Below are positions 1,102 through 59,352 of a stretch of 64,000 nt of DNA, piece after piece. A program made the position numbers and the translations under genes. How positions within the stretch are numbered: position 1 is the first letter of the stretch; every line of letters starts with the position of its first letter. The notes beneath the pieces are model-generated. The model made no database searches and was not told where the DNA came from. It worked only from the letters and a program-made list of their open reading frames with translations. Location: NCBI RefSeq assembly GCF_016903815.1, contig NZ_CP069973.1. One strand, written 5' to 3'. This DNA comes from Escherichia coli (GTDB lineage Bacteria > Pseudomonadota > Gammaproteobacteria > Enterobacterales > Enterobacteriaceae).

Positions 1102-2241
1102 TTATCGCTGCGGCAAATAACGCAGCGGGTTTACGGATTTCCCCTTGTAACGAATTTCAAAATGCAAGCGTGTTGAACTGGTTCCGGTGCTACCCATGGT
1201 TGCTATTTTTTGCCCCGCCTTCACTTCTTGTTGTTCCCGGACCAGCATTGTGTCGTTATGGGCGTAGGCACTCAGGTAATCATCATTATGTTTGATGATA
1301 ATCAGATTACCGTAGCCGCGCAGCGCGTTACCGGCATAAACAACGCGGCCATCTGCGGTCGCGATAATTGCCTGTCCTTTGCTGCCTGCGATATCAATCC
1401 CCTTGTTGCCCCCCTCAGAAGCGCCAAAGGTTTCGATCACTTTGCCCTCAGTCGGCCAGCGCCAGGTGGAGATAGGCGTACTGGTTGATGTACTGCTGAC
1501 AGTCGGCTCGGTTGTGCTTGCTGTTGGCACCGTTACAGGCGCTGTGACCGTGGTCGCAGTTGGCTTGTTGTTCGGCAACATTTTGTTAGCACTCTGTTCA
1601 CCCGAAGACTCAGAATACGTAATTGTCGGTTGCGACGCAACAGCAACGGTGGAATTTTGTGCAGGCTTGATCACAACTCCTTGCTCTGCTGCGTCGGCCT
1701 GGGTAATGGCATTTCCGCCAGTGATTGGCGTACCGGAAGCATTACCCACCTGCAAGGTCTGACCAACGTTCAGCGCGTATGGTGCCTGAATATTGTTGCG
1801 CTGAGCAAGGTCACGGAAATCGTTGCCAGTAATCCAGGCGATATAGAAAAGTGTGTCGCCTTTTTTCACGGTATAGGTACTGCCGCTATAACTGCCTTTC
1901 GGAATGTTCCCATACTGACGGTTATAGACGATGCGTCCGTTTTCCATCTGTACCGGCTGCTGAGCTACTGGCTGCACCGGCTGGATTTGCGGTTGTTGAG
2001 TGGCCTGAATTTGTGGCTGCTGTACCGGCTGAATTTGCGGTTGCTGAGCTGTAGACGTCGTTCCCATTTTCGGCGGCGGCGTAATCAACATACCAGAATT
2101 GGTATTTGCAGGCGCATTGCCATTAACGGAGCTGACCGGTGCCGGTGGATTTGAAGTGTCAGAACAGCCTGCCAGCCATAGCGAAACCAGTGACAAAGCC
2201 GCAATGCGGCGAACGGTGAATTTTGGGCTTCCCGCGCTCAT
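1102..2241 (-). CDS. nlpD: Murein hydrolase activator lipoprotein NlpD (LysM + M23 peptidase-like domain)
   Basis: 379-aa ORF with lipoprotein signal (LAGCS), Q/P-rich repeat linker and C-terminal M23-like domain; sits immediately upstream of rpoS. Confidence 0.95.
1948..2046 (-). repeat. Imperfect in-frame tandem repeat in nlpD encoding (QQPQIQP[V/A])n
   Basis: Protein segment [33 protein letters not shown]; DNA shows repeated ccggctg[g/a]atttg[c/t]gg units. Coordinates derived from codon positions. Confidence 0.6.
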
Positions 2242-11126: not shown

Positions 11127-11765
11127 GGGAGTTCTACCGCAGGGGCGGGGAACTCCAAGTGATGTCCATCATCGCATCCAGTGCGTCCGGTTTATCCCCG
11201 CTGACGCGGGGAACACGTCAATAGGCGGCGTCCCGTAGCCGTCCCCTTCGGTTTATCCCCGCTGGCGCGGGGAACACGTTGAGGTCGATAAGTACGAACG
11301 GTTTCCCTGCGGTTTATCCCCGCTGGCGCGGGGAACACGATCGCCTGCTCCAGCGTCACTCCCTGCCCCTCGATTTATCCCCGCTGGCGCGGGGAACACT
11401 TCTGATACGTACTGAGGCCGGTTGTGATACGCGATTTATCCCCGCTGGCGCGGGGAACACTAACCCCCAATGAAGTTAATAAAGTCTATGGCCGATTTAT
11501 CCCCGCTGGCGCGGGGAACACATGAGATTAAAATACTCAGTACTCTTACTCGCCGATTTATCCCCGCTGGCGCGGGGAACACCAGCGTGGCGCGATAAAG
11601 CAATGTGTCTGGCTCGATTTATCCCCGCTGGCGCGGGGAACACCAGAGGCAACCGACGCGGATTCAGTAGGAAAGCGATTTATCCCCGCTGGCGCGGGGA
11701 ACACCGATAGACACTTTGCGGTCATTGTCTATTCGGCGATTTATCCCCGCTGGCGCGGGGAACAC
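11127..11765 (-). CRISPR. Type I-E CRISPR array: 10 regular 29-bp repeats plus one degenerate terminal repeat, 10 spacers of 32 bp
   Basis: Plus-strand repeat cggtttatccccgctggcgcggggaacac at 61-bp period. Repeats start ~11188, 11249, 11310, 11371, 11432, 11493, 11554, 11615, 11676, 11737; degenerate repeat ~11127..11155. AT-rich leader on the cas2 side, so transcription runs toward iap. Confidence 0.97.
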
Positions 11766-11861
11766 ACTAAGCATACATAACTGTTTTTAAACAAATTTAT
11801 TCCGCATCAACAATCTACCAACTAAATTAAAACATTTCCTTATTTTTAAAGAACAGATAAC
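11766..11861 (-). promoter_or_regulatory. CRISPR leader (AT-rich) between array and cas2
   Basis: AT-rich stretch abutting the newest repeat. Assigned by position, which matches the leader location described for E. coli I-E arrays. Confidence 0.7.
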
Positions 11862-13071
<1,210 letters not shown>

Positions 13072-13075
<4 letters not shown>

Positions 13076-13722
13076 GCCTCTGCTCCGGGTTTGATCAGCA
13101 TCAGACCACAGCCGAACGCGCGGCTTTTGCCATACCCCTGGCTCAGACGTTGCAGAAATAACCCAGGATCGGTGACCGTAAGCATCCCCGTATAATCCAC
13201 GCTACTGAACTGGATCAGTTGCCGGGAGTTTTCCCGCCGCAGTTGCTGTTGTCGGTAGGCATCGACCGAGGTATCCAGTAGTGTAAAACCGCTTCTTTCC
13301 CCCTGCGCTGCCAGCCAGTCCAGCGCCGCCTGTTGTTGATGCAACCAGACATCACTTCCTTCCACCTGCCCCCTCACCTGCCGTTTCGCCTCCATCAGCA
13401 AGTCGTGGCGTTTGCCCGCTTTACAAATTGTTGGATTCGCCCGCAGGTTGAAACAAAGGGATTGTCCGGTACGCAACTCTGGCGCAAATGGTCGGCATTC
13501 GATGGTGAAAATATCACTTTCCGCCGGGCGTTCCTGCGACAGGACAAAAAAGCGAAACGCCCCCTGGAGTTCTTCCCGACGATAAAGAAATTGCCTTTCT
13601 TTGCCGCCAGGAAAAAGATCCCACAGCCACTGATGCATTACATATTCACCGCGACCCACCAAATGCAGCAACTGCGCAGGCAAAAGCTGGCCGGTATGTA
13701 AGGTTATTCTTGAGAGGTACAT
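13072..13722 (-). CDS. casE: CRISPR pre-crRNA endoribonuclease Cas6e (CasE/Cse3)
   Basis: Track ORF 13072..13860 trimmed to internal ATG (MYLSRITLHTGQ...), about 216 aa, with AGGAGG upstream. C-terminal glycine-rich G(F/M)GCGL-type motif. Start choice is inferred. Confidence 0.85.
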
Positions 13723-14450
13723 GGTTCCTCCTTGCTGAGCCACGGCCCCTGATTGATGGTGCGTTCCCCAAACAGCCACTGCTGACGATTTAAAGGAACA
13801 TCCCGGCGACGTAATATTTTGCTCGCGACCAGGCCGTCGTGTTCCCCTTCCCACCAGCATTCATCCTGAAGTTTCGGGAGTGAGACTTTCAGTTCGCGGA
13901 AACTATCCTGATACTGTTGGTATGCGTTACGTAAGACATCAGACGCGTTGCCTTCGAGCAGTAACGGCGCAAGTGGTAACGCCAGCGGATGACTTTTTCG
14001 CCCCAGATAAAGCGGAAAAACCGGATGACGTAAACCGTCCTGCAACTGTTCAAGCCTGTAAGACGCATCGGGGGTTGTTGCCACCGCCACCATCCACCAG
14101 GCATCGGTGTAGTAGTCGCGCCGGGAGATAATCGCGCTCAGAAGATCAGGGGCGCTCAACTCTTCGCGACGGCTGAAATAACGCGCTTTACGCACCTCTT
14201 TTGGCATCTGGACCGTGTGATAATCCCGTGCCCAGCGCGGGTTACGGCTGGCGCAAACCACCAGTGAATAGTGGCGGTTAAACGCGTTTAATCGTTCGGT
14301 ATCATCACGCCGAATCCCTACCCCGGCAGCCAGCAGCCCCAGCAATGCTGAGCGCGAAGGCAGTTCATGGGTATGACGCACTTCGCCGGGGGCATCGACG
14401 CCCCAGGATGCCATTGGCCCATGAAGCTGAAAAATCAAATATTGGCTCAT
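13704..14450 (-). CDS. casD: Cascade subunit Cas5e (CasD)
   Basis: 248-aa ORF at the Cas5 position between cas7 and cas6e; N-terminus (LIFQLHGPMASWG) is Cas5-like. Assigned by family resemblance and position. Confidence 0.85.
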   Translation of the reverse strand: MSQYLIFQLHGPMASWGVDAPGEVRHTHELPSRSALLGLLAAGVGIRRDDTERLNAFNRHYSLVVCASRNPRWARDYHTVQMPKEVRKARYFSRREELSAPDLLSAIISRRDYYTDAWWMVAVATTPDASYRLEQLQDGLRHPVFPLYLGRKSHPLALPLAPLLLEGNASDVLRNAYQQYQDSFRELKVSLPKLQDECWWEGEHDGLVASKILRRRDVPLNRQQWLFGERTINQGPWLSKEEPCTSQE

Positions 14451-14460
14451 TAGCCGCCCC

Positions 14461-15516
14461 TTACGCGCAGATAAAGTCCAGCACGTCCTTCATGCTTCCC
14501 TGTTTGTTCATCACGTCAAAGCTTACGCATTCGGTCTTCTGTTCATAGACCGTATTCATATTTTCGCGAAGCGTTGTAATACGCTGCACCGCCACATCTA
14601 ACTGCCGGGTGCCATTAATGGGTTCATAGAAAGCCGCCGCCAGAGAGCGTGGTTGTTCAGTGCCTTTTTCTGCCAGCGCCCAGGAGGCGTAGGCACGGCT
14701 GGCAAAGCTGTTCTGTTTGCCGGTTGGGGAGACTTTAAGTGCGGCTTCCGTAAAGGCGCGCAAGGTCTGATTAGCTAACGCTTCGTCACCGCCGAGGTTT
14801 TCGACCAGCAGATCTTTATCGATGCAGATATAGGTGTAGAACAGCGCAGAACCGAATCCGGTTTCACCAAGATGCCCGGCACCGGCATCTTCAGAAGCCT
14901 GGCGCAAATCATCAACGGCGGTGAAAAAATCATCTTCGACAATCGTTTCACTGACACCAAATGCATGCGCGACCTGGCAGGCGGCTTCAACATTAAATTC
15001 GGGTTTATTCGCCAGCATACGACCAAACATAGCGATATCTACCGCCATGCGATCTTTACGTAACAAAGCGAGATCTTCCTCTTTTGGCGCGCGCTTTTCT
15101 TCGGCCAGTTGATGGGCCAGCGCTTTTACGGCGTCAAATTCTGCCGGGCTGATATGGACTAGCTGTTCAGTTTCGGCGTTAGTGAGCGGATCTTTTGGTT
15201 TTTTGTCGTTTTTAGCTTTCCCAAGATAATCCGCAATTTTTGCCGCCCATTCGATGGCTTTTTTCTCTTCGATGCCTTTCTCAATCAGGATAGTTGCCGC
15301 CTCACGCGCAATACGCCCACTGCGAATACCAATATGGCCCGCCAGTGCCTGTTCAAAAAGTGCAGAAGTGCGCCACGCACGTTTCAGACTTTGTGAGGAA
15401 ACGCGCAGACGCGTTGCTCCACCCAGTACCACAGTTTTTGGCGCACCGGTGTCATCACGGTTAAGGTTGGCAGCAGGGTAAGCGGTTAACAAATGAAGCT
15501 GAATAAATGTCGTCAT
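14461..15516 (-). CDS. casC: Cascade backbone subunit Cas7e (CasC/Cse4)
   Basis: 351-aa ORF; N-terminus (LHLLTAYPAANLNRDDTGAPKT) resembles E. coli CasC. Confidence 0.9.
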   Translation of the reverse strand: MTTFIQLHLLTAYPAANLNRDDTGAPKTVVLGGATRLRVSSQSLKRAWRTSALFEQALAGHIGIRSGRIAREAATILIEKGIEEKKAIEWAAKIADYLGKAKNDKKPKDPLTNAETEQLVHISPAEFDAVKALAHQLAEEKRAPKEEDLALLRKDRMAVDIAMFGRMLANKPEFNVEAACQVAHAFGVSETIVEDDFFTAVDDLRQASEDAGAGHLGETGFGSALFYTYICIDKDLLVENLGGDEALANQTLRAFTEAALKVSPTGKQNSFASRAYASWALAEKGTEQPRSLAAAFYEPINGTRQLDVAVQRITTLRENMNTVYEQKTECVSFDVMNKQGSMKDVLDFICA

Positions 15517-15530
15517 GAGATAGTCCTTTA

Positions 15531-16067
15531 TTAATTTTGTTCGTTATCGGCGTCGCCAGCCTGGTAATATTCCAGCGCCCAGCGGATACGGATAAATTCT
15601 GTTGGCCGCTGCTGGCGGCGGTGATGATTGAGCAGGTCGTCGCTCTCCTGGCACCAGCGGAAAATATCTTCTGCCAAAGAGATAAGATTGACGGAACCAT
15701 TTAATAATTTGACCGCGCGACGTAACTGACGCAGTAAATCATCAGGCGTTTTTACTGCCGACAGGCGAGTAAAACGCCCCTCCGACATTACCGCCGCCAG
15801 CTGCGCGGCAAAAGGCTGCCGTTCATCAATAGCTTTAACATTGGCGCTAACTGCGGCGACCAGCGCCAGTGCGGTAAAACGCCACTCTTGTGCTTCAATT
15901 TTCCACAAAGTGTGGGTCTGCATCAGCAGAGAACGAAACCCTTCTGACAGACAAACATCATTAACCGTTGTGCTACGCCGCAGACTGGCACGATTGCCGC
16001 GTTTTTCCTGCAACTCTTCGTGCCATTTACGCAGCGTGGCTTTGTGCTCCTCTTTTACAATACTCAT
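15531..16067 (-). CDS. casB: Cascade small subunit Cse2 (CasB)
   Basis: 178-aa ORF between cse1 and cas7. Assigned by position and size; I do not recognise the sequence itself. Confidence 0.8.
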   Translation of the reverse strand: MSIVKEEHKATLRKWHEELQEKRGNRASLRRSTTVNDVCLSEGFRSLLMQTHTLWKIEAQEWRFTALALVAAVSANVKAIDERQPFAAQLAAVMSEGRFTRLSAVKTPDDLLRQLRRAVKLLNGSVNLISLAEDIFRWCQESDDLLNHHRRQQRPTEFIRIRWALEYYQAGDADNEQN

Positions 16068-17626
16068 TCAGCAGCCTCCTGCTTTTTCTCCCTGGCGGCT
16101 TTAGCATTTTGCTTCTCCGCCGATGTTGTAAAATATTTCTTGCGCGCGGTCATGACGCGTTTCAAATCAACGGGCTCATATGGATTGGTGAAGACACGCT
16201 CGTCAAAATCCTGACGCGCGAATAACCAAATTTCCTTTTGCCATTTGCTGAGTAATTCATCCGCATCCTGACCTTCTTCAATGTGGCGCACTAACCTCAG
16301 GAAGCGATGCTGAGTTTTGTTCCAGAAGTCGATATCCACAAAACTGAAATCACCCCGTGCACCTTTTGGATCGGAGAACCACGCTTCTTTCAATGCACTC
16401 CGTAACAGACTCAGAATCCGTGAAGCCGTTTGCGCAGCCAGCCGCAGCTTCGGTATCTGGCCTTCTTTTTTATCGAGCAGCAGCGGAAAATGGTGTTCGT
16501 ACCAACAGCGCGCTTTCATGTTGTCAAAATCATAACCAAATCCCCACAGGCCCACTTTTGCCTGCTTGAGACTGCTGGCATTAAAGAGTTTCACCACCAG
16601 CGCGGGAAGTTCCGTATTGTTTTCTGATTTACCCGTTTCGATAAGGCCTAACCAGTCGCGCCAGATTAAACCGCCTGGTTGTGGTTTGACCGAGTAAAAC
16701 TCGCCGCCCTCTTTAAGGGGTACACGGTAAGGCGTTAAGGGATGCTGCCACATGGCATAATTCGCGCCGTAATTTTTGGTCGTCATCAGGCTCAGGAGCG
16801 CGTCGTTCTGCTCGCCGCAAATATCGCAGTTGCCGACTGTCGTGGTATTAAAATCAATACGAATACGCCGCGGCATTCCCCAGTACGCCTGGAGTTTATT
16901 AACCTGATCATCGGTTACCACCGCACCGGCCAGTTCGCTGGTACGCGTCGGGCCAAGCCAGGGGAAAACCAGATCGTCAAATTTTTTGGGTAGCGGTAAG
17001 TCGGCTTCGTCCTGCGGCATCACATTGAGCCACAGTTTGCGCCACAAGGGCGTTTGTTGATTGCCCTGATATTCCTGTAATTCAATCAGAGTGGTCATCG
17101 GCCCACCGCCGCGTAAACCGGTGCGGTAGCCTTTACCACCTGACGGCGCATTTAACTGTAGGGAGAACAGAGCTAACGCAGAACAATGTGGGCACAGGTA
17201 TTCCGTTACACCACGCTTGATAAAGTGGTCTTTATTAAACTTCGTTGTTTGAGCGCCGGGAATCTCAGGCAGTAGCGAAGCGACCTGAACTTTATCTCCT
17301 GTGAGCGCCTCGAAATCCTGCATAAATGAAGGGGAATCTGGCCCAAACTGGAAAGCGTGTTCTAAGGACAGCAATGCTTCCCGTAGCTTTTCAGATTCCA
17401 GTCCGTCTTCCCAGATATCATCCCAACGACGATGATCTTTTGGCGCAAAGCTGGTTTGTAGTAGCCCCAGCAAAAACTGCCATGCCGCTCCCTGGAGATC
17501 TGCCCGTGGCGCAGCAATATCGACAACATTTTCATCCGCCAGATCGACAGGCGCCAGTTTGCCTGTCGTTCCGTCTTTATAACGAACGGGCAACCACGGG
17601 GTTGTCAGAAGTGAAAACGAGTTCAT
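16064..17626 (-). CDS. casA: Cascade large subunit Cse1 (CasA)
   Basis: Track ORF 16064..17695 trimmed to internal ATG (MNSFSLLTTPWLPVRY...) with GAGAGGA upstream, about 520 aa. Assigned by position and N-terminal resemblance; start uncertain (alternative ATG 6 bp upstream). Confidence 0.82.
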   Translation of the reverse strand: MNSFSLLTTPWLPVRYKDGTTGKLAPVDLADENVVDIAAPRADLQGAAWQFLLGLLQTSFAPKDHRRWDDIWEDGLESEKLREALLSLEHAFQFGPDSPSFMQDFEALTGDKVQVASLLPEIPGAQTTKFNKDHFIKRGVTEYLCPHCSALALFSLQLNAPSGGKGYRTGLRGGGPMTTLIELQEYQGNQQTPLWRKLWLNVMPQDEADLPLPKKFDDLVFPWLGPTRTSELAGAVVTDDQVNKLQAYWGMPRRIRIDFNTTTVGNCDICGEQNDALLSLMTTKNYGANYAMWQHPLTPYRVPLKEGGEFYSVKPQPGGLIWRDWLGLIETGKSENNTELPALVVKLFNASSLKQAKVGLWGFGYDFDNMKARCWYEHHFPLLLDKKEGQIPKLRLAAQTASRILSLLRSALKEAWFSDPKGARGDFSFVDIDFWNKTQHRFLRLVRHIEEGQDADELLSKWQKEIWLFARQDFDERVFTNPYEPVDLKRVMTARKKYFTTSAEKQNAKAAREKKQEAAE

Positions 17627-17723
17627 ACGCATCCTCTCGTAAAAAAGACCATCCCAGGTCGGTTGTCCATCATTCCATCCTTTTCGGTGTATCAACTATT
17701 CAGAGAGCCCTGTCGCAGGCATC

Positions 17724-20423
17724 TCAACCAACCTTGCCAGTCAATCCTTCCATAGCCGAATACCCGCAACTTTCGTCATCGGTAACTAAAATCACGTTTG
17801 CCATCTCCGGATCTTTCCGCTGTTCAATGCACCACTGCCTGAACGCTTCCCCTTCCAGTAAAGAAAACTCATCCCGATGTTTTTTCCACCAGCTTCGACG
17901 CACTCTGACAACGCTCATTTCCCATGCGTGAGCACCGTTGGCATAAGGCTTCACCACACTGGCAATACAGGTAGCCAGCCACAGGGAAACAGACTCCTCC
18001 GCCAGACGTGTCGACAGCTTTTCCGGAAGGTAATCGTTGATATTGGCGGCATAGCCAGGCCTGAAGTTCAGCACAAACTTTTTAGCCATTGCGCGATCGC
18101 AGTAATATTTGCCCACTTGCTCCTGCTCGCTGCGGGCAAATCCTTCCGGCATTACCACGTCCTCACCGTAGACTGATTCAATAAGAAGGCGGGCTGCGTG
18201 TGGCATTTGAATAGCGCCTTGCTCACGCAGTACACGCTGCGTCAGCCAGATTCGTCCATGATCGGGATAGACATATGCACTGTTACGCATGGCACTGCCG
18301 AACCATTCGTCACCTGGAGCGTCGTCCCAGACGGGGGCCAGAATCAGCAATTCAGGAGGGGAACGCTCGTCTTTTCCGTCACGCTTTAACTGACCATTAA
18401 TATCGCGGATATGCCGCTGTAATCGCCCCGCTCGCTGGATCAGCAAATCAACAGGGGCCAGGTCGGAAATCATTTCGTCCATATCGCAATCAACGCTCGA
18501 CTCTAAGACCTGAGTACAAATGAGGACTTTTCCGGCACGCTGTGAGCTATCTTCTTTACCGAAGCGTGCCAGCGTTTCCGTTTCAATTCGCTGGCGATCG
18601 CTAAAAGCAAAGCGGCTATGAAACAGAGAAAGGCTGGAAGCAGGAATGACGCCGCGGGCAAGCAACTGACGATAAACCTTAATAGCGTCATCGACAGAAT
18701 TCCGGATCCAGGCGATGCATTTCCCCTGACTTACTGCCGATTCGATACGCGCAATACATTCTTGTTCGCTATGAAGCCAACCCACGCTCACGCTACGCTC
18801 AACGTCTTTGCGCGTCGCTACCCGGTGTGAATGCACATCGGATTTCGTAACGTGCGTCAGCCAGGGGTAATCATCCTTTTCCAGGAACGGAGCTTCTTGC
18901 TGGCCCTCTGTACCACGCGCAAAGGCAGCAACGAGTTTGTCGCACTGCTGTTGAGATAACGTGGCAGAAAGCAAAATGACGCTGTTTCCGCCACGCGCCT
19001 GCCGCTCGATCAGCCCTTCAAGAATGCATGACATGTAAGCGTCACAGGCATGGATCTCATCAGCCAGCAGGATTTTGTTACTCAGTCCCAGAAGCCGCAG
19101 ATTATTATGTTTGAACGGCATCACAGCCATCATCGCCTGATCCAGCGTGCCGACGCCAATTTCAGCCAGTAGCGCCTTCTTGTTACTGTCGGCAAACCAG
19201 GCCGCACATCCCTGACTGAACGTTTGTTCATCCGGTTCTTCTGACCCGACTAAATCACCGGACCAGAGTGATTCATTAAAGCGGTCCATTAATGTTCGGG
19301 CACTGTGTGCCAGCACCAGGCTGGGGCGGGACTCTGGCGAATAGAAAGCAAGCCAGGTTTTGACCAGTCGATCGTACATGGCATTGGCCGTTGCCATTGT
19401 TGGCAGGCCAAAAAACAAACCCTGCGCTTTACCCGCAGCCATCAACCTGTGCGCCAGGATAAGCGCCGCTTCCGTTTTACCTGCGCCAGTCACATCTTCC
19501 AGAATAAATAACTGTGGCCCTGGCTGGCTGATATCCAGATCCAGCACCTTTTGCTGTAACGGTGTCGGATTCTCAATAAAAGGAAACAGCGTATTAATTC
19601 CGGTGAAAGGCGCGACTTTTGCTTTTAGAGGAAAGACGGTTAAGGCGTTTTGAGCCTGAACTAAAGTTTTCTGCCAGTAACCTTTAATATCCATTGGGTG
19701 TGCGACGCGTGGAAAAAATCGCGTTGACGAACCCGTCCAGTCTGCGAGCACGACGGTTGCAGAGATATACCAGGAAAGGTGTTTTATAAGTTCAATGCCC
19801 TCATCATCATCCCAGAATGCGGGGATCTCTATGAGCGGAAACAGTGGTTTGATTTCAAGAAGAAAATCTCGCGCGGCAGCTTTGTCTTCAGGCAGAAAAT
19901 TATCCAGTTCATCAATACGGTCAGGCGGGCGACCATGATGCCCGGTAGTTATGGGCATCCACATCTCCATCACCCGTTTAAGTTTGCGCGGAGAGAGTGA
20001 AGATGAAGGAAGCAATTCTTCGTATTCACTTAAATAATGATGCCACAGCCAGTAGCCCAGCGTTGAATGAGAGATCTTTTCGTAATTCTTTCTTGCGCCT
20101 TCCGGAACCTTGAGTTGTGGGTGCAGGTAAAGTTGCTGAAAAGAGCGGGCAAATTTTCCAGTATCGTGCCAGCACAATAGCCAGGCGAAAAATTGTGCTG
20201 CCTGCTCCGTATCAGCGAAACCTAGTTGACGAAAATAGTCAGTCAGCCCGAAGCAATTGCTTTTAACCATTAAATAGCCCATCGCGGCTACATCCAGCGA
20301 ATGCCAGCAAAGAAGGTGATAGTCGTCGCCCCCGTCTTTCTCGCCGCGTCGGGTTTTTCCCCAGAAATCAAAAAAAGTCACAATATTTTTATCCTTCAGT
20401 AAACTTAAAGGATATTTACGCAT
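17724..20423 (-). CDS. cas3: CRISPR-associated nuclease/helicase Cas3 (HD nuclease + DExH helicase)
   Basis: 899-aa ORF with N-terminal HD-like region (HSLDVAAMGY), Walker A (GAGKT) and DEIH box; ATG start. Confidence 0.95.
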   Translation of the reverse strand: MRKYPLSLLKDKNIVTFFDFWGKTRRGEKDGGDDYHLLCWHSLDVAAMGYLMVKSNCFGLTDYFRQLGFADTEQAAQFFAWLLCWHDTGKFARSFQQLYLHPQLKVPEGARKNYEKISHSTLGYWLWHHYLSEYEELLPSSSLSPRKLKRVMEMWMPITTGHHGRPPDRIDELDNFLPEDKAAARDFLLEIKPLFPLIEIPAFWDDDEGIELIKHLSWYISATVVLADWTGSSTRFFPRVAHPMDIKGYWQKTLVQAQNALTVFPLKAKVAPFTGINTLFPFIENPTPLQQKVLDLDISQPGPQLFILEDVTGAGKTEAALILAHRLMAAGKAQGLFFGLPTMATANAMYDRLVKTWLAFYSPESRPSLVLAHSARTLMDRFNESLWSGDLVGSEEPDEQTFSQGCAAWFADSNKKALLAEIGVGTLDQAMMAVMPFKHNNLRLLGLSNKILLADEIHACDAYMSCILEGLIERQARGGNSVILLSATLSQQQCDKLVAAFARGTEGQQEAPFLEKDDYPWLTHVTKSDVHSHRVATRKDVERSVSVGWLHSEQECIARIESAVSQGKCIAWIRNSVDDAIKVYRQLLARGVIPASSLSLFHSRFAFSDRQRIETETLARFGKEDSSQRAGKVLICTQVLESSVDCDMDEMISDLAPVDLLIQRAGRLQRHIRDINGQLKRDGKDERSPPELLILAPVWDDAPGDEWFGSAMRNSAYVYPDHGRIWLTQRVLREQGAIQMPHAARLLIESVYGEDVVMPEGFARSEQEQVGKYYCDRAMAKKFVLNFRPGYAANINDYLPEKLSTRLAEESVSLWLATCIASVVKPYANGAHAWEMSVVRVRRSWWKKHRDEFSLLEGEAFRQWCIEQRKDPEMANVILVTDDESCGYSAMEGLTGKVG

Positions 20424-20617: not shown

Positions 20618-20770
20618 CTACTTCTTCGATTCGTAAGCGAGAACTGCCTTAAACTCCATACCACGTTCTCTGATACTCAACTCACACAACGAGTCGCCTA
20701 CCATCAGCGTGAATCCCAGTACTGTACAACACAGTACGATGATTGCCACAAGGGCATATTTTGTCAGCAT
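20618..20770 (-). CDS. Hok/Gef-family type I toxin (HokE-like small membrane peptide)
   Basis: 50-codon ORF not in the track (too short): [53 protein letters not shown] with GGAGG 6 nt upstream; single N-terminal TM helix; conserved Hok C-terminus (LCE...AVLAYE). Translated by hand. Confidence 0.8.
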
Positions 20771-21034
20771 GTCTTGCCTCCCTGCAAAGAAGAGACTAAC
20801 ATTCGAATTGCTTAGGTTCGAACGCTGGCCTCAGGTTGATAGAAATATCGCCTGGGGCTTTTGTCCATCTGGAACCTCGCGAATGCTTAACGCCAGACAG
20901 CCTCAAGCACCCAACGCCATTCTATACCTGATAATTCTTCCAGCGGCGTTCACGTTTAAAATCAGGAATGCTGCTCGCAAAATAAAAACGCCCCCATCAT
21001 TTCTGACAGAGGCGTTTAATTTATCCGGCAATAT

Positions 21035-28310: not shown

Positions 28311-28840
28311 TGAACTGCACCCCAAATGTTGGACATAATCTGACATCTGAAGGTGCAGTTTATGAAACATTCATTTGAAGTAAAACTTGCCGCTGTAAAT
28401 CATTACCTGGCTGGTCATGCAGGCATCATTTCTACGGCAAAACTCTTTCAACTTTCTCACACCAGCCTCTCACACTGGATTAATCTTTTTCTTCTTCACG
28501 GTCCTCGGGCACTGGATTGCAGACACAAGCGTAGCTATTCTCCTGAAGATAAACTTTGCGTGGTTCTTTATGCTCTCGGGCATTCTGAGTCTCTACCCCG
28601 GGTAGCTGCCCGGTTTAACATTCCCAGCCACAACACGGTTAAAAACTGGATAAAAGGCTACCGCAAATCTGGTAATGAGGCCTTTATCAGGCGCAGGAAG
28701 GAGAAAAGCATGACCCGTTCTGATGATACCCATGAAAACGAGGCAAACATGACGCCGGAAGAGATGAAGAATGAGCTACGTTATCTTCGCGCAGAAAATG
28801 CATATCTGAAAGCCATGCAGGAGCATCTCCTGGAAAAAAA

Positions 28841-29761
<921 letters not shown>

Positions 29762-38311: not shown

Positions 38312-38449
38312 TGGTTATCCCCGCTGGCGCGGGGAACATAAGTTCGACAACTTAAAAAATGATAACAAGTCCGGTTTATCCCCGCTGATGCAGGGAACAT
38401 AATAAAAACTTTAACTAGTTCGGTTTATCCCTGTTTTTACAAGGAATAT
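38312..38449 (-). CRISPR. Degenerate CRISPR remnant (three decayed I-E-like repeats)
   Basis: tggttatccccgctggcgcggggaaca (~38312), cggtttatccccgctgatgcagggaacat (~38372), cggtttatccctgtttttacaaggaatat (~38421); irregular spacing; AT-rich sequence follows. Confidence 0.7.
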
Positions 38450-38902: not shown

Positions 38903-39236
38903 TGGTTTATTCCCGCTGGTGCGGGGAACTCATCAGTGATATCCAACATTGCGGAGCTAAACGCGGTTTATCCCCGCTGGCGCGGGGAACTCTAATATCC
39001 CTGGCGATAATCAACCGGCTTACTCGGTTTATCCCCGCTGGCGCGGGGAACTCGAGAGCGAGGGGAGATTCCGGCAGGGCGTGCACGGTTTATCCCCGCT
39101 GGCGCGGGGAACTCGCGGGTATGCTCCGCTCCGTGTTCGACAAACTCGGTTTATCCCCGCTGGCGCGGGGAACTCAAGGTCGCGGGGACGCCACGGGCAG
39201 TCAATGTCGGTTTATCCCCGCTGGCGCGGGGAACTC
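38903..39236 (-). CRISPR. Second type I-E CRISPR array: 6 repeats (first degenerate), 5 spacers of 32 bp
   Basis: Repeat cggtttatccccgctggcgcggggaactc at 61-bp period, starting ~38903 (degenerate tggtttattcccgctggtgcggggaactc), 38964, 39025, 39086, 39147, 39208. AT-rich leader on the queE side. Confidence 0.95.
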
Positions 39237-40246: not shown

Positions 40247-40539
40247 AGCATTCTCTGTGAAGTGGATAATTGTTAATTATTGCAGATCCTGCCACAACAA
40301 TCATGTCTTATTAACATTCTGTTACAGGCAGGTTTAAAGAAAAATGAGAAACAGATCGTTAATAATAAAAGGGAGTAACGTATTATGTCAGAAATAAATA
40401 AAGTAAAGGGATTTAATCATGTCAAAAACATTCACCAAAATTATACTTATTTTTTCTGTGTTCGTTTTTAATTATAACGAATCTCAAATTACCGATGCCG
40501 CCGTCAATTTATTTATCCAGCTTTAATGGGACATTTATA

Positions 40540-44721: not shown

Positions 44722-45513
44722 TTAGAGATCAATTTCCTGCCGTTTTACCTGTTGCCAGACTTCTTCCATTGTTTCGAGGTCAACACCTGTCATTTCCAGT
44801 CCACGCGCGGCAACAATACGCTCCACTTCGCGAAAACGACGCTCGAATTTTTCGTTCGCTTTTTGCAATGCGATTTCCGCTTTTGTCCCTAAATGACGAG
44901 CCAGATTGACCGTGGCAAACAGCAGGTCGCCCATTTCCTCCTCCAGTTTAGCCTGGTCGATAACAGCCTGCCGTGCCTCGTACATCACCTCGTCGATCTC
45001 TTCGTAGACTTTATCGACTACCGGACCAAGCGTCGTCCAGTCAAAACCAACGTTGGCGCAACGTTTCTGGATTTTTTGCGCACGCATTAAAGCCGGTAAA
45101 CTACGAGGAATATCGTCCAGCGCCGAATGCTGCGCTTTCTGCGCGCGCTCTTCGGTTTTGATTTGCTCCCAACGGGCAAGCACTTCACTACTGTTTTCGG
45201 CAGAACTGTCAGCAAAAACATGCGGATGGCGACGTTCTAATTTATCGCTGATCGCGGCGCATATATCATTAAAGTCAAAGCGCCCTTCTTCCTGAGCCAT
45301 TTGTGCGTAAAACACCACCTGGAACAGCAGATCGCCCAGTTCACCGCGAAGATCGTCAAAATCTTCACGGGCGATGGCGTCCAGCACCTCGTAGGTTTCT
45401 TCAAGGGTGTAAGGCGCAATGGTGGCAAATGTCTGCTCTTTATCCCACGGGCAGCCGTTTTCCGGATCGCGCAGGCGCTGCATGATGGTGAGCAAACGGT
45501 CGATTTGATTCAT
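44722..45513 (-). CDS. mazG: Nucleoside triphosphate pyrophosphohydrolase MazG
   Basis: 263-aa ORF recognised as MazG; downstream of mazEF. Confidence 0.95.
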   Translation of the reverse strand: MNQIDRLLTIMQRLRDPENGCPWDKEQTFATIAPYTLEETYEVLDAIAREDFDDLRGELGDLLFQVVFYAQMAQEEGRFDFNDICAAISDKLERRHPHVFADSSAENSSEVLARWEQIKTEERAQKAQHSALDDIPRSLPALMRAQKIQKRCANVGFDWTTLGPVVDKVYEEIDEVMYEARQAVIDQAKLEEEMGDLLFATVNLARHLGTKAEIALQKANEKFERRFREVERIVAARGLEMTGVDLETMEEVWQQVKRQEIDL

Positions 45514-45584
45514 TAGAATGTCCTGAAAATTGCGGGTCCGTCAGGTGGAAACCTGTGACCAGAATAGAAGTGAGTTAGTAACAC

Positions 45585-45920
45585 CTACCCAATCAGCACG
45601 TTAATTTTGGCTTTAATGAGCTGTAATTCCTCTGGGGCAACCGTTCCTTTCTTCGTTGCTCCTCTTGCCCGCCAGGCGATACTTTTTACCTGATCAGCTA
45701 ACGCTACGCCATCACGTTCCTGACCGGATAAAACAACTTCGAACGGATATCCTTTTGATTGCGTTGTACAAGGAACACACAGACACATACCTGTTTTGTT
45801 GTTGTACATGAACGGACTCAGGACAACAGCCGGACGATGTCCGGCTTGCTCGCTACCTTTTGTCGGGTCAAAATCAACCCAAATCAGATCGCCCATATCG
45901 GGTACGTATCGGCTTACCAT
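45585..45920 (-). CDS. mazF: Type II toxin MazF (mRNA interferase, ACA-specific endoribonuclease)
   Basis: 111-aa ORF ([35 protein letters not shown]...), recognised as MazF. Confidence 0.96.
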   Translation of the reverse strand: MVSRYVPDMGDLIWVDFDPTKGSEQAGHRPAVVLSPFMYNNKTGMCLCVPCTTQSKGYPFEVVLSGQERDGVALADQVKSIAWRARGATKKGTVAPEELQLIKAKINVLIG

Positions 45921-46168
45921 TACCAGACTTCCTTATCTTTCGGCTCTCCCCAGTCGATATTCTCGTGGAGGTTTTCCGGCGTGATGTCGTTGACCAGTTC
46001 AGCAAGCGTAAATACGGGCTCTTTACGCACTGGCTCAATAATTAATTTGCCATCCACCAGGTCAATCTTCACTTCATCATCAATATTCAGATTGAGCGCC
46101 TGCATTAACGTAGCCGGGATCCGCACCGCCGGTGAATTTCCCCAACGCTTTACGCTACTGTGGATCAT
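45920..46168 (-). CDS. mazE: Type II antitoxin MazE
   Basis: 82-aa ORF ([27 protein letters not shown]...), recognised as MazE; stop overlaps mazF start. Confidence 0.96.
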
Positions 46169-46245
46169 AACCCTTTCCTCAAACCGCTATCATATGTAGA
46201 TACAGTATATATCAATCTACATTGTAGATACGAGCTAATTTCGGC

Positions 46246-48480
46246 CTAACTCCCGTGCAACCGACGCGCGTCGATAACGTCTGGCACCTGATTGAGTTTA
46301 CCCAGCACGCGGCCCAGCACTTGCAGATTGTAAATCTCAATGGTCATGTCGATAGTCGCCAGTTGCTGTTTAGTGTCGCTACGGCTGGCAACGCCAAGCA
46401 CGTTCACCTTCTCGTTGGCAAGAATGGTCGTGATATCACGCAATAATCCACTGCGATCATTGGCCATCACCCGGACCACCAGCGAATATCCGGCGGAGTA
46501 GCTCTCACCCCATACCGCGTCAACAATGCGTTCTGGCGCATGGGAGCGCAGTTCCGCCAGTTGTTCGCAATCGGCGCGGTGTACTGAAATACCGCGTCCC
46601 TGGGTAATGAAGCCGACAATCTCATCTCCAGGAATCGGCTGACAGCAGCGCGCGATGTGGTGCATCAGGTTGCCGACACCTTCTACCACCACACGACCGT
46701 TATCTTTACTGCGGTTTTGCGGCGTATAGCTTTTTTGCTGAAGTTGCTTCAGCGCGGCGGCATCCTGCTCTTCGGCACTCGGCTTATTAAATTGCGATTG
46801 CAGGAAGTTCACCATCTGATTGAGACGGATATCCCCGCCACCAATTGCCGCCAGCAACTCGTCGACATCATTGAAGTTGTAACGCGGCAGCAGATGTTTT
46901 TCTGCTTCTTTCAGGCTGATCCCCAGATGTTCCAGCTCGTCGTCAAGGATTTGCCGCCCAGCCAGAATGTTTTTGTCACGGTCCTGTTTACGGAACCAGG
47001 CGTGAATTTTCGAACGCCCACGGCTGGTTGTGACGTAACCGAGGTTTGGGTTTAACCAGTCACGGCTGGGGTTCGGCTGTTTCTGGGTGATAATTTCAAT
47101 CTGGTCGCCCATCTGCAGCTGGTAGGTGAACGGCACAATGCGCCCGCCAATTTTTGCCCCGATGCAGCGGTGTCCGACATCACTGTGGATGTGGTAAGCG
47201 AAGTCCAGCGGTGTTGATCCCGCAGGCAAATCAACGACGTCACCTTTCGGCGTAAAGACGTACACCCGGTCGTCAAAGACCTGGCTGCGTACTTCGTCGA
47301 GCATTTCGCCGGAATCAGCCATCTCTTCCTGCCACGCAATCAGTTTACGCAGCCAGGCAATTCGGTCTTCATGTCCCGAACGTGCGCCGCCAGCTGCCGC
47401 GCCTTCTTTATATTTCCAGTGCGCAGCAACACCCAACTCTGCATCTTCATGCATCTGTTTGGTGCGGATTTGGATCTCTACGGTTTTGCCACCTGGTCCC
47501 AGAACCACGGTATGAATAGACTGATAACCGTTTGGTTTCGGGTTAGCGACGTAATCGTCAAACTCATCCGGCAGGTGGCGATAGTGAGTGTGCACTATCC
47601 CCAGTGCGGCATAACAATCCTGTAAACGCTCGGCGACAATACGTACCGCACGCACATCAAACAGCTCATCGAAGGCGAGGTTCTTTTTCTGCATTTTGCG
47701 CCAGATGCTGTAGATGTGTTTCGGACGACCATACACTTCAGCTTTAACGCCTTCAGCTTTCATCTCAGCGCGCAGATGACCGACAAACTCTTCGATATAG
47801 TGTTCGCGGTCGAGACGGCGTTCATGCAACAGTTTTGCGATGCGTTTGTATTCGGTCGGGTGGAGATAACGGAAGCAGTAATCTTCCAGCTCCCATTTCA
47901 GTTGTCCAATCCCAAGACGGTTCGCCAACGGCGCGTAGATATTGGTGCACTCTTTTGCCGCCAGTACGCGTTCATCTTCCGGCGCGTCTTTTACTTCGCG
48001 CAGATGAGCAATACGCTCTGCCAGTTTAATGACCACGCAGCGAAAATCATCGACCATCGCCAATAACATCCGGCGAACGTTATCGACCTGTTCGGAGGAA
48101 ACAGAATCGGTATGCGTCGCTTTCAGCTGGCGGATCGCCGCCATATCACGCACGCCGTGAATAAGGTTAACGACCGACTTACCGACGCACTCACGCAGCA
48201 CATCTTCGCTGACTACGTTGGCATCCGCCAGAGGGAACAGCAGCGCCGCCCGCAGCGTGTCAATGTCCATACTTAATGTCGAGAGGATCTCCACCATCTC
48301 AACACCACGCCACAATAACAGACTGGCATCCGGATGTCCCTGCGTCTGTTGCAGACAATACGCCCAGGTTTCGGCTAAGCACTCACACGACTTCTGGCTG
48401 GTAATACCCAGACTTGCGATCCATTTTTCCGGATCAAATTCACCAGCCTTATTGATATGTGCACTTCTTACCGCAACCAT
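46246..48480 (-). CDS. relA: GTP pyrophosphokinase ((p)ppGpp synthetase I)
   Basis: 744-aa ORF recognised as RelA. Confidence 0.98.
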   Translation of the reverse strand: MVAVRSAHINKAGEFDPEKWIASLGITSQKSCECLAETWAYCLQQTQGHPDASLLLWRGVEMVEILSTLSMDIDTLRAALLFPLADANVVSEDVLRECVGKSVVNLIHGVRDMAAIRQLKATHTDSVSSEQVDNVRRMLLAMVDDFRCVVIKLAERIAHLREVKDAPEDERVLAAKECTNIYAPLANRLGIGQLKWELEDYCFRYLHPTEYKRIAKLLHERRLDREHYIEEFVGHLRAEMKAEGVKAEVYGRPKHIYSIWRKMQKKNLAFDELFDVRAVRIVAERLQDCYAALGIVHTHYRHLPDEFDDYVANPKPNGYQSIHTVVLGPGGKTVEIQIRTKQMHEDAELGVAAHWKYKEGAAAGGARSGHEDRIAWLRKLIAWQEEMADSGEMLDEVRSQVFDDRVYVFTPKGDVVDLPAGSTPLDFAYHIHSDVGHRCIGAKIGGRIVPFTYQLQMGDQIEIITQKQPNPSRDWLNPNLGYVTTSRGRSKIHAWFRKQDRDKNILAGRQILDDELEHLGISLKEAEKHLLPRYNFNDVDELLAAIGGGDIRLNQMVNFLQSQFNKPSAEEQDAAALKQLQQKSYTPQNRSKDNGRVVVEGVGNLMHHIARCCQPIPGDEIVGFITQGRGISVHRADCEQLAELRSHAPERIVDAVWGESYSAGYSLVVRVMANDRSGLLRDITTILANEKVNVLGVASRSDTKQQLATIDMTIEIYNLQVLGRVLGKLNQVPDVIDARRLHGS

Positions 48481-58941: not shown

Positions 58942-58986
58942 AAAGCAACCTCAATAAGAAAAACTGCCGCGAAGGATAGCAGGAAT

Positions 58987-59352
58987 AAAAAAAGGGAGCA
59001 CTGTATTCACAGTGCTCCCGGTTCGTTTCGCAGCATTCCAGCTACTTTTGTTGCTCCCTGCTCATCCTTGACAACTTTTCCTCTGGCCTTGCGGCCAATC
59101 GTTCATCCTGAACTATTGCTTCCTGCTCACACCACCCCGATGTGATACTTCATCCTGAAGTGTCCCTGGCCTTCCTGACCCACCGAATCATCCTGACCGG
59201 TTCTCATTCTCCATCCTGGAGGTGTCCTTTAACGCGTCCTGCGTCATCCTCTTCGCTTCATCCAGAAGCCTTTCCCTGAAACACCATCCTGGTGTGTCCT
59301 TCAGAAGTGTCATCATCCTGATGTTCACTTCGTTGTCTGACTCCCTGTCGAC
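58987..59352 (-). ncRNA. csrB: CsrB small RNA (CsrA-sequestering sRNA)
   Basis: About 365-nt non-coding region on the minus strand carrying about 18 GGA motifs, many as CAGGAUG (plus-strand catcctg). 3' terminator hairpin gggagcactg...cagtgctccc plus U-run at ~58987..59019. 5' end approximate. Confidence 0.85.

What the first reader, a model, noticed from the sequence alone, without database searches (positions are those of the whole stretch)
45585..46168. mazEF type II toxin-antitoxin module in the relA-mazE-mazF-mazG arrangement
This is the classical chromosomal TA pair, with a 1-bp stop/start overlap, immediately downstream of relA and upstream of mazG. Together with the Hok-like ORF and the CRISPR-Cas locus it gives this window three defence or addiction-type modules. 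It is known biology, included for completeness.
Basis: established knowledge. Interest (0 to 1): 0.25.

Follow-up and report, generated by a model that had tools for sequence, protein, structure and literature searches.

The report
Ordinary E. coli mazEF toxin-antitoxin pair
This is the textbook mazE-mazF toxin-antitoxin gene pair of Escherichia coli, intact and with proteins identical to the laboratory K-12 versions, sitting in its usual place between relA and mazG, so it is ordinary and already known.

Summary
Confirmed and already known. On the minus strand, mazE (46168..45920, 82 aa) and mazF (45920..45585, 111 aa) share one base at TAATG. They lie 77 nt downstream of relA and 71 nt upstream of mazG. 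Both proteins are 100% identical over their full length to the wild-type E. coli MazE and MazF of solved structures (1MVF/1UB4; 3NFC/5CK9). They carry the same RefSeq protein ids as in K-12 MG1655. No inactivating substitution exists: MazF E24, R29 and T52 and MazE K7, R8, W9 and R16 are all present. The published 50-nt 'cab' operator, which holds the alternating palindrome and the ATATAT core, matches exactly at 46234..46185. The whole window is 100% identical to E. coli strain 7/2 (NZ_CP023820.1). Two small corrections: the genes are on the minus strand, and the chromosomal module's role as a 'defence or addiction' system is disputed in the literature. In passing, about 19% of complete E. 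coli genomes lack mazEF. They carry a 60-nt hairpin spacer between relA and mazG instead, a polymorphism already described. Interest is very low.

The parts
45920..46168 (-). mazE, antitoxin, 82 aa (AbrB/SpoVT-type DNA-binding N-terminal domain, disordered MazF-binding C-terminus)
   Evidence: ORF. Pfam PF04014 E=3.5e-14. NCBIfam NF007312 196 bits, cut-off 113. 100% identical over 82 aa to PDB 1MVF_D and 1UB4_C. DNA identical to K-12 MG1655. DNA-contact residues K7, R8, W9, R16 present (residues named in PMC4333400).
45585..45920 (-). mazF, toxin, 111 aa, ACA-specific endoribonuclease
   Evidence: ORF. Pfam PF02452 E=5.9e-24. NCBIfam NF007386 227 bits, cut-off 120. 100% identical over 111 aa to PDB 3NFC_A and 5CK9_A. 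Six synonymous differences from K-12 and no amino-acid change. E24, R29, T52 present.
45918..45922 (-). TAATG stop/start junction: mazE TAA at 45922-45920, mazF ATG at 45920-45918, 1-base overlap, suggesting translational coupling
   Evidence: Read directly from the sequence.
45928..45934 (-). AAGGAAG, Shine-Dalgarno-like sequence for mazF, inside the 3' end of mazE
   Evidence: Read directly from the sequence. Its function is inferred.
46176..46180 (-). GAGGA, Shine-Dalgarno-like sequence 7 nt upstream of the mazE ATG
   Evidence: Read directly from the sequence. Its function is inferred.
46185..46234 (-). mazEF operator 'cab': three MazE-dimer binding sites c, a, b in the promoter region
   Evidence: Exact 50/50 match to the 'cab' oligonucleotide used for MazE binding in PMC4333400 (its last, non-genomic base omitted). 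One match in the window, 0 in 100 shuffles.
46194..46229 (-). Alternating palindrome: the middle arm TGTAGAT (46221-46215, minus strand) can pair with ATCTACA upstream (46229-46223, 1 nt apart) or downstream (46201-46195, 13 nt apart). The ATATAT core of site 'a' is at 46207-46212.
   Evidence: Inverted repeats I1, I2, I6 and direct repeat D1. Three of the six ATCTACA 7-mers in the 64-kb window lie in these 36 nt.
46246..48480 (-). relA (GTP diphosphokinase, 744 aa), upstream neighbour
   Evidence: Pfam HD_4, RelA_SpoT, TGS, RelA_AH_RIS, ACT_4. Annotated relA in the identical strain 7/2 record. Differs from the K-12 protein at S98C and V672M.
44722..45513 (-). mazG (nucleoside triphosphate pyrophosphohydrolase, 263 aa), downstream neighbour
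   Evidence: Pfam MazG E=2.3e-39. NCBIfam NF007113 370 bits, cut-off 208. V185I relative to K-12.
45555..46245 (-). The 691-nt segment that is present or absent among E. coli genomes: promoter/operator, mazE, mazF and 30 nt of 3' flank
   Evidence: BLAST of the window against mazEF-less strains breaks at 45554 and 46246.

Best explanation
The region is the intact chromosomal type II toxin-antitoxin module mazEF (chpA) of Escherichia coli, in its canonical relA-mazE-mazF-mazG setting.

Shown here:
- Two overlapping minus-strand genes encode proteins identical to the experimentally characterised MazE and MazF.
- They are preceded by an exact copy of the characterised 'cab' operator.

Inferred from published work on these same proteins:
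- MazF is a dimeric endoribonuclease that cuts single-stranded RNA at ACA and so blocks translation.
- MazE is a labile antitoxin, degraded by ClpAP and Lon. Its disordered C-terminus wraps around MazF dimers to give an inactive MazF2-MazE2-MazF2 complex.
- The AbrB-type N-terminal domain of MazE, helped by MazF, binds the three operator sites and represses the mazEF promoter.
- When MazE synthesis falls behind its degradation, free MazF cleaves cellular mRNAs, rRNA precursors and its own mRNA, which carries 8 ACA sites in this allele.
- The TAATG overlap suggests translational coupling of mazF to mazE.

What the chromosomal copy is 'for' remains disputed. Proposals include stress-induced stasis, programmed death, phage defence, or nothing beyond its own persistence.
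For: - Gene calls and the 1-base overlap.
- MazF is 100% identical over 111 aa to PDB 3NFC and 5CK9. MazE is 100% identical over 82 aa to 1MVF and 1UB4.
- The RefSeq protein ids are the same as in K-12 MG1655, in a record 100% identical to the window.
- Family scores lie above the curated cut-offs.
- No non-synonymous difference from K-12. E24 is present, and E24A is the published inactive mutant (PMC5888573). R29, T52 and the MazE DNA-contact residues are present (PMC4333400).
- The operator matches the published 'cab' DNA exactly, and the alternating palindrome was found independently.
- The same 1-kb stretch occurs at 95-100% identity, annotated mazF/mazE/relA/mazG, in 4415 complete E. coli genomes.
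- Mechanism statements come from PMC5888573, PMC4333400, PMC1626106 and PMC7167474.
Against: Nothing in the sequence argues against the identification. Three limits apply:
- Expression and activity in this strain were not, and cannot be, measured here.
- The simple sigma-70 scan did not pick out a convincing promoter: 2 sites found against 2.0 expected. The promoter positions therefore rest on the literature.
- The physiological role is contested. A five-TA deletion showed no fitness defect, and earlier programmed-death and leaderless-mRNA models have been challenged (PMC7167474).
Confidence: 0.97

Rival explanations
1. The module is a decayed or inactivated remnant: a toxin with disabling substitutions, or an antitoxin-only relic that merely looks like mazEF.
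For: No tool result supports it here.
Against: Both proteins are full length and 100% identical to wild-type proteins of proven activity. The stop and start codons and the operator are intact. All six nucleotide differences from K-12 in mazF are synonymous, as expected under purifying selection.
Confidence: 0.01
2. This rival concerns the role, not the identity. The module is a selfish insertion into the relA-mazG intercistronic region. It persists through its own addiction properties and makes no contribution to the stringent response or to host fitness.
For: - mazEF is absent from 1008 of 5426 complete E. coli genomes, although relA and mazG are present in 5425.
- In those genomes relA and mazG are separated only by a 95-nt spacer.
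- The segment has lower G+C than its flanks: 0.466 against 0.51-0.53, with mazF GC3 0.438 against 0.53-0.59.
- Relatives at 60-80% identity are carried on 147 plasmid records.
- The same argument is made in PMC7167474.
Against: - Native mazEF gave moderate protection against RNA phages (PMC12151602).
- Deleting mazEF raised P1 infection loads (cited in PMC7167474).
- The module is retained with identical protein sequence across very many lineages.
- This reading is compatible with the best explanation of mechanism.
Confidence: 0.45
3. This rival also concerns the role. The module acts as a stress-triggered programmed-cell-death or abortive-infection device, functionally linked to relA and ppGpp through co-transcription.
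For: It lies directly downstream of relA and upstream of mazG in one orientation, with short spacers. Published models describe ppGpp-dependent repression of mazEF leading to MazF-mediated death, with MazG as a modulator (PMC1626106).
Against: Later work contradicts the ppGpp dependence and the irreversibility of the effect, and finds no functional link with the neighbouring cistrons (PMC7167474). Strains without mazEF keep an undisturbed relA-mazG pair. PADLOC-DB has no matching defence model.
Confidence: 0.25

Closest known systems
E. coli K-12 MG1655 mazEF (chpAI/chpAK; b2783/b2782)
   Same: The MazE and MazF proteins are identical (same RefSeq ids). The mazE DNA and the 50-nt cab operator are identical. 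The neighbours relA and mazG, the strand arrangement and the 1-base overlap are the same.
   Different: There are six synonymous changes in mazF, one of which (45642, G here, A in K-12) removes an ACA site: 8 here against the 9 reported for K-12 in PMC5888573. One base differs upstream of the operator (46236). There is a 1-nt indel immediately after the stop codon and four substitutions in the mazF-mazG spacer.
E. coli chpB (chpBI/chpBK, ChpS/ChpB), the second chromosomal PemIK homologue
   Same: Same PemK/MazF toxin fold family and the same AbrB-type antitoxin. Weak cross-hits to the ChpB and ChpS equivalog models (55 and 35 bits).
   Different: The scores fall far below the ChpB and ChpS cut-offs (129 and 101 bits). 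It is a different locus and is not linked to relA.
Plasmid pemIK (R100), parD kis/kid (R1), and plasmid-borne mazEF copies
   Same: Homologous toxin: Kid PDB 1M1F, E=7.6e-9. Same antitoxin-then-toxin operon with autoregulation. Plasmid MazF relatives reach up to about 70% identity.
   Different: Those copies are plasmid-borne and have a demonstrated post-segregational killing role. The copy here is chromosomal and fixed at one site, and no plasmid record carries this allele. The single 98% 'plasmid' hit is a 4.8-Mb record, evidently a chromosome.

Membership tests
MazF/PemK toxin family (Pfam PF02452; NCBIfam NF007386 endoribonuclease MazF) | Sequence match above the curated family thresholds | tested here: met
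   PF02452 84.8 bits against cut-off 23.1. NF007386 equivalog 227.4 bits against cut-off 120, covering 1-111 of 111.
MazF/PemK toxin family (Pfam PF02452; NCBIfam NF007386 endoribonuclease MazF) | Identity to an experimentally characterised MazF with a solved structure | tested here: met
   111/111 identical to PDB 3NFC_A and 5CK9_A; 110/110 to 1UB4_A.
MazF/PemK toxin family (Pfam PF02452; NCBIfam NF007386 endoribonuclease MazF) | Active-site residues intact (E24; R29 and T52) | tested here: met
   E24, R29 and T52 are present. E24A is the published inactive mutant (PMC5888573). The roles of R29 and T52 come from my own knowledge of the MazF-substrate structures (the 5CR2 series) and were not checked in a paper here.
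MazF/PemK toxin family (Pfam PF02452; NCBIfam NF007386 endoribonuclease MazF) | ACA-specific cleavage of single-stranded RNA | not testable with these tools
   A biochemical property. It is inferred from protein identity with the characterised enzyme.
MazE antitoxin (Pfam PF04014; NCBIfam NF007312) | Sequence match above the curated thresholds, and identity to characterised MazE | tested here: met
   PF04014 52.9 bits against cut-off 24.7. NF007312 196.2 bits against cut-off 113. 82/82 identical to 1MVF_D and 1UB4_C.
MazE antitoxin (Pfam PF04014; NCBIfam NF007312) | DNA-binding residues of the N-terminal domain (K7, R8, W9, R16) | tested here: met
   All four are present. The residues are named in PMC4333400.
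MazE antitoxin (Pfam PF04014; NCBIfam NF007312) | Proteolytic lability (ClpAP, Lon) | not testable with these tools
   Taken from the literature only (PMC5888573, PMC1626106).
Type II toxin-antitoxin operon | Two small adjacent co-oriented genes, antitoxin first, tightly coupled | tested here: met
   mazE lies upstream of mazF on the minus strand, with a TAATG 1-base overlap.
Type II toxin-antitoxin operon | Autoregulatory operator with palindromic antitoxin-binding sites in the promoter region | tested here: met
   Exact match to the published 'cab' operator at 46185-46234. Alternating palindrome and ATATAT core found. Binding itself was not tested.
Canonical relA-mazE-mazF-mazG locus of E. 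coli | relA immediately upstream and mazG immediately downstream, same strand | tested here: met
   The spacers are 77 nt and 71 nt.
Catalogued anti-phage defence system (PADLOC-DB v2.0.0) | Match to a defence-system protein model | tested here: not met
   No PADLOC family at E<=0.01 for MazE, MazF or Hok. The 'defence module' label therefore rests on individual papers (PMC12151602) and not on that catalogue.

The most novel reading that the evidence does not exclude
The most novel reading still open is about origin. The sharp 691-nt presence/absence boundary (45555-46245) faces a 60-nt hairpin-bearing spacer in mazEF-less strains. This could record a single replacement event in which mazEF displaced a relA-proximal terminator-like hairpin and so changed relA-mazG transcriptional coupling in about 81% of E. 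coli. Separately, the loss of one ACA site in this mazF allele might slightly weaken MazF self-cleavage. Both would be minor refinements of known biology, and the insertion idea is already voiced in PMC7167474.
Probability: 0.3. Interest if true: 0.12.

Novelty: already known. Interest (0 to 1): 0.03.

Why it matters
It matters only as correct annotation. The window holds an intact, wild-type copy of one of the best-studied toxin-antitoxin systems, so any analysis of this strain can treat mazEF as present and presumably functional. It opens no new question. The one point of wider relevance is that mazEF is an accessory insertion, missing from about a fifth of E. coli. That point bears on the debate over whether chromosomal TA modules serve the host, and it has already been published.

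Tried and rejected
- **Promoter and terminator scan.** It found 2 promoter-like sites against 2.0 expected. Neither is a convincing mazEF P2/P3, so I did not assign promoter coordinates.
- **Original operator paper.** Marianovsky et al. 2001, PubMed 11071896, is not held. I took the operator sequence from PMC4333400 instead.
- **RNA folding of the two spacers.** The relA-mazE and mazF-mazG spacers of the window showed no structure beyond shuffles (z -0.39 and -0.13). I claim no structured RNA element there.
- **First MAFFT alignment against empty-site strains.** It misplaced the relA flank. I fixed the boundaries from BLAST coordinates and by reading the sequences.
- **First Python comparison with K-12.** It used the wrong record and gave meaningless output. 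I repeated it correctly.
- **PADLOC scan.** No hits.
- **Tandem Repeats Finder at score 80.** It missed the first CRISPR array. A repeat-pattern search found it.
- **Tools deliberately not used.** I did not run the large protein-database, metagenome or structure-prediction tools. Full-length identity to solved, characterised proteins made them unnecessary.
- **Pseudogene or inactive-toxin reading.** Considered and rejected.

Full report
**Observation**

The stated interval 45585-46168 holds two ORFs on the minus strand. One runs 46168 to 45920 (82 aa) and the other 45920 to 45585 (111 aa).

- On the coding strand the junction reads GTCTGGTAATGGTAAGC. The TAA stop of the first gene (45922-45920) and the ATG of the second (45920-45918) share one base.
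- A GAGGA lies 7 nt upstream of the first ATG, and an AAGGAAG lies upstream of the second.
- Upstream, a 744-aa ORF ends at 46246, 77 nt before the mazE ATG. It has HD_4, RelA_SpoT, TGS, RelA_AH_RIS and ACT domains.
- Downstream, a 263-aa MazG-domain ORF starts at 45513, 71 nt after the mazF stop.

**Identity**

- The 111-aa protein hits Pfam PemK_toxin (E=5.9e-24). It also hits the NCBIfam equivalog 'endoribonuclease MazF' at 227 bits, against a cut-off of 120.
- The 82-aa protein hits Pfam MazE_antitoxin (E=3.5e-14). It also hits the equivalog 'antitoxin MazE' at 196 bits, against a cut-off of 113.
- Against the PDB, MazF is identical at all 111 positions to 3NFC_A and 5CK9_A. MazE is identical at all 82 positions to 1MVF_D and 1UB4_C.
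- The whole 64-kb window is 100% identical, without gaps, to E. coli strain 7/2 (NZ_CP023820.1, positions 3155464-3219463).
- In that record the two genes are annotated mazF (WP_000254738.1) and mazE (WP_000581937.1). These are the same protein accessions as in K-12 MG1655.

A base-by-base comparison with K-12 shows the following:
- mazE is identical at the DNA level.
- mazF has six differences, all synonymous.
- One base differs in the relA-mazE spacer (46236).
- There is a 1-nt indel just after the mazF stop.

It finds none: E24, R29 and T52 are present, as are the MazE DNA-contact residues K7, R8, W9 and R16. E24A is the published inactive mutant (PMC5888573), and the MazE residues are named in PMC4333400.

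**Operator**

- An unbiased repeat search of 46150-46260 finds ATCTACA/TGTAGAT arms arranged so that the middle arm can pair with either neighbour. The arm pairs are 46215-46221 with 46223-46229 (1 nt apart) and 46194-46201 with 46215-46222 (13 nt apart). An ATATAT palindrome lies between them at 46207-46212.
- Three of the six ATCTACA heptamers in the whole window lie within these 36 nt.
- The 'cab' operator oligonucleotide used for MazE binding studies (PMC4333400) matches exactly at 46234..46185. No shuffle of the window gave a match.
- The simple sigma-70 scan was uninformative, with 2 sites found against 2.0 expected. Promoter positions therefore rest on the literature.

**Mechanism**

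Sequence identity is shown here. The steps below are inferred from published work on these same proteins.

- MazE is labile (ClpAP, Lon) and neutralises MazF in a MazF2-MazE2-MazF2 complex.
- MazE, aided by MazF, binds the three operator sites and represses transcription.
- MazF also cuts its own mRNA (PMC5888573, PMC4333400, PMC1626106).
- An antisense RNA, aMEF, starting inside mazF has been reported to stimulate mazEF expression (PMC8749433). I did not map it here.

This allele has 2 ACA sites in mazE and 8 in mazF. Nine are reported for K-12 mazF (PMC5888573). The synonymous G at 45642 removes one.

The biological role of the chromosomal copy is disputed. Programmed-death and ppGpp-linked models (PMC1626106) are contested, and a selfish-insertion view is argued in PMC7167474. 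Modest protection against RNA phages was reported in 2025 (PMC12151602). PADLOC-DB has no model that matches these proteins.

**Population context**

- The 1-kb stretch around the module matches 5425 of 5426 complete E. coli genomes, but only 4415 cover at least 80% of it.
- The mazEF interval itself is found in 4418 genomes, even with sensitive blastn.
- In the remaining roughly 1008 genomes (19%), relA and mazG are direct neighbours.
- In those genomes the 691 nt at 45555-46245 are replaced by a 60-nt sequence. It forms a 12-bp hairpin, and the 95-nt spacer folds at -33.3 kcal/mol with z = -5.2.
- The mazEF segment has lower G+C (0.466) than relA (0.534) and mazG (0.513).
- Relatives at 60-80% identity occur on 147 plasmid records.

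This accessory-gene status is already noted in the literature, which cites UTI89 as having an undisturbed relA-mazG pair (PMC7167474).

- A 50-aa Hok/Gef ORF (20618-20770, minus strand; Pfam E=5.7e-10) overlaps an Rfam sok match (20755-20912, 111.7 bits).
- A complete type I-E cas operon, cas3 through cas2, lies at about 11862-20423.
- CRISPR repeats occur in three clusters: 10 at 11189-11763, 2 degenerate at 38312-38398, and 6 at 38904-39234.

**Verdict**

The finding is real, correctly interpreted and entirely ordinary. It is a wild-type copy of a textbook system in a sequenced E. coli strain. Novelty: already known. Interest: about 0.03.

Noticed in passing
window 45555-46245; L002:1615-1709 (strain G12); L003:3115-3209 (strain 1105): mazEF is a presence/absence polymorphism within E. 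coli. It is present in 4418 of 5426 complete genomes. In about 1008 genomes a 60-nt spacer with a strong 12-bp hairpin sits between relA and mazG instead (the 95-nt spacer folds with z = -5.2). This is already mentioned for UTI89 in PMC7167474. Which state is ancestral was not determined.
   Followed up: partly
window 20618-20912 (-): A hok/sok type I toxin-antitoxin locus lies between cas3 and cysH. It consists of a 50-aa Hok/Gef ORF (Pfam PF01848, E=5.7e-10) overlapped by an Rfam sok RNA match (RF01794, 111.7 bits against gathering score 59).
   Followed up: partly
window 11189-20423: A complete type I-E CRISPR-Cas locus. The cas3, casA-E, cas1e and cas2e genes are annotated in the identical strain 7/2 record, with an adjacent array of 10 repeats (11189-11763). 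Seven of those repeats carry GATTTATCC instead of GGTTTATCC.
   Followed up: partly
window 38312-38398 and 38904-39234: Two further CRISPR repeat clusters lie far from the cas genes, between ygcE and queE. One has 2 degenerate repeats and the other 6 repeats (5 perfect). The RefSeq record annotates only the second cluster.
   Followed up: no
window 28362-29710 (+): An IS3-family IS1397 transposase with a programmed frameshift lies between ygcP and ygcQ, according to the annotation of the identical strain 7/2 record.
   Followed up: no
window 58984-59343 (-): A full-length CsrB sRNA (Rfam RF00018, 382.9 bits) lies in the stretch between syd and yqcC in the strain 7/2 annotation.
   Followed up: no
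window 46246-48480 (relA) and 44722-45513 (mazG): RelA differs from the K-12 protein (WP_000226815.1) at S98C and V672M. MazG differs at V185I. The consequences are unknown, and these are probably neutral lineage variants.
   Followed up: no
window 45642 (mazF codon for T98): A synonymous G (A in K-12) removes one ACA site. This mazF mRNA therefore has 8 MazF target sites in its coding region, against the 9 reported for K-12.
   Followed up: partly
window 1971-2047: An imperfect 24-nt tandem repeat (3.2 copies, 71% matches) lies inside nlpD, which is at about 1102-2196 on the minus strand. The strain's NlpD has a recent, uncommon RefSeq accession (WP_306174120.1), so it may be a repeat-number variant.
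   Followed up: no
window 40385-40526 (+): A small ORF between queE and ygcG is annotated as a frameshifted hypothetical-protein pseudogene in the identical RefSeq record.
   Followed up: no
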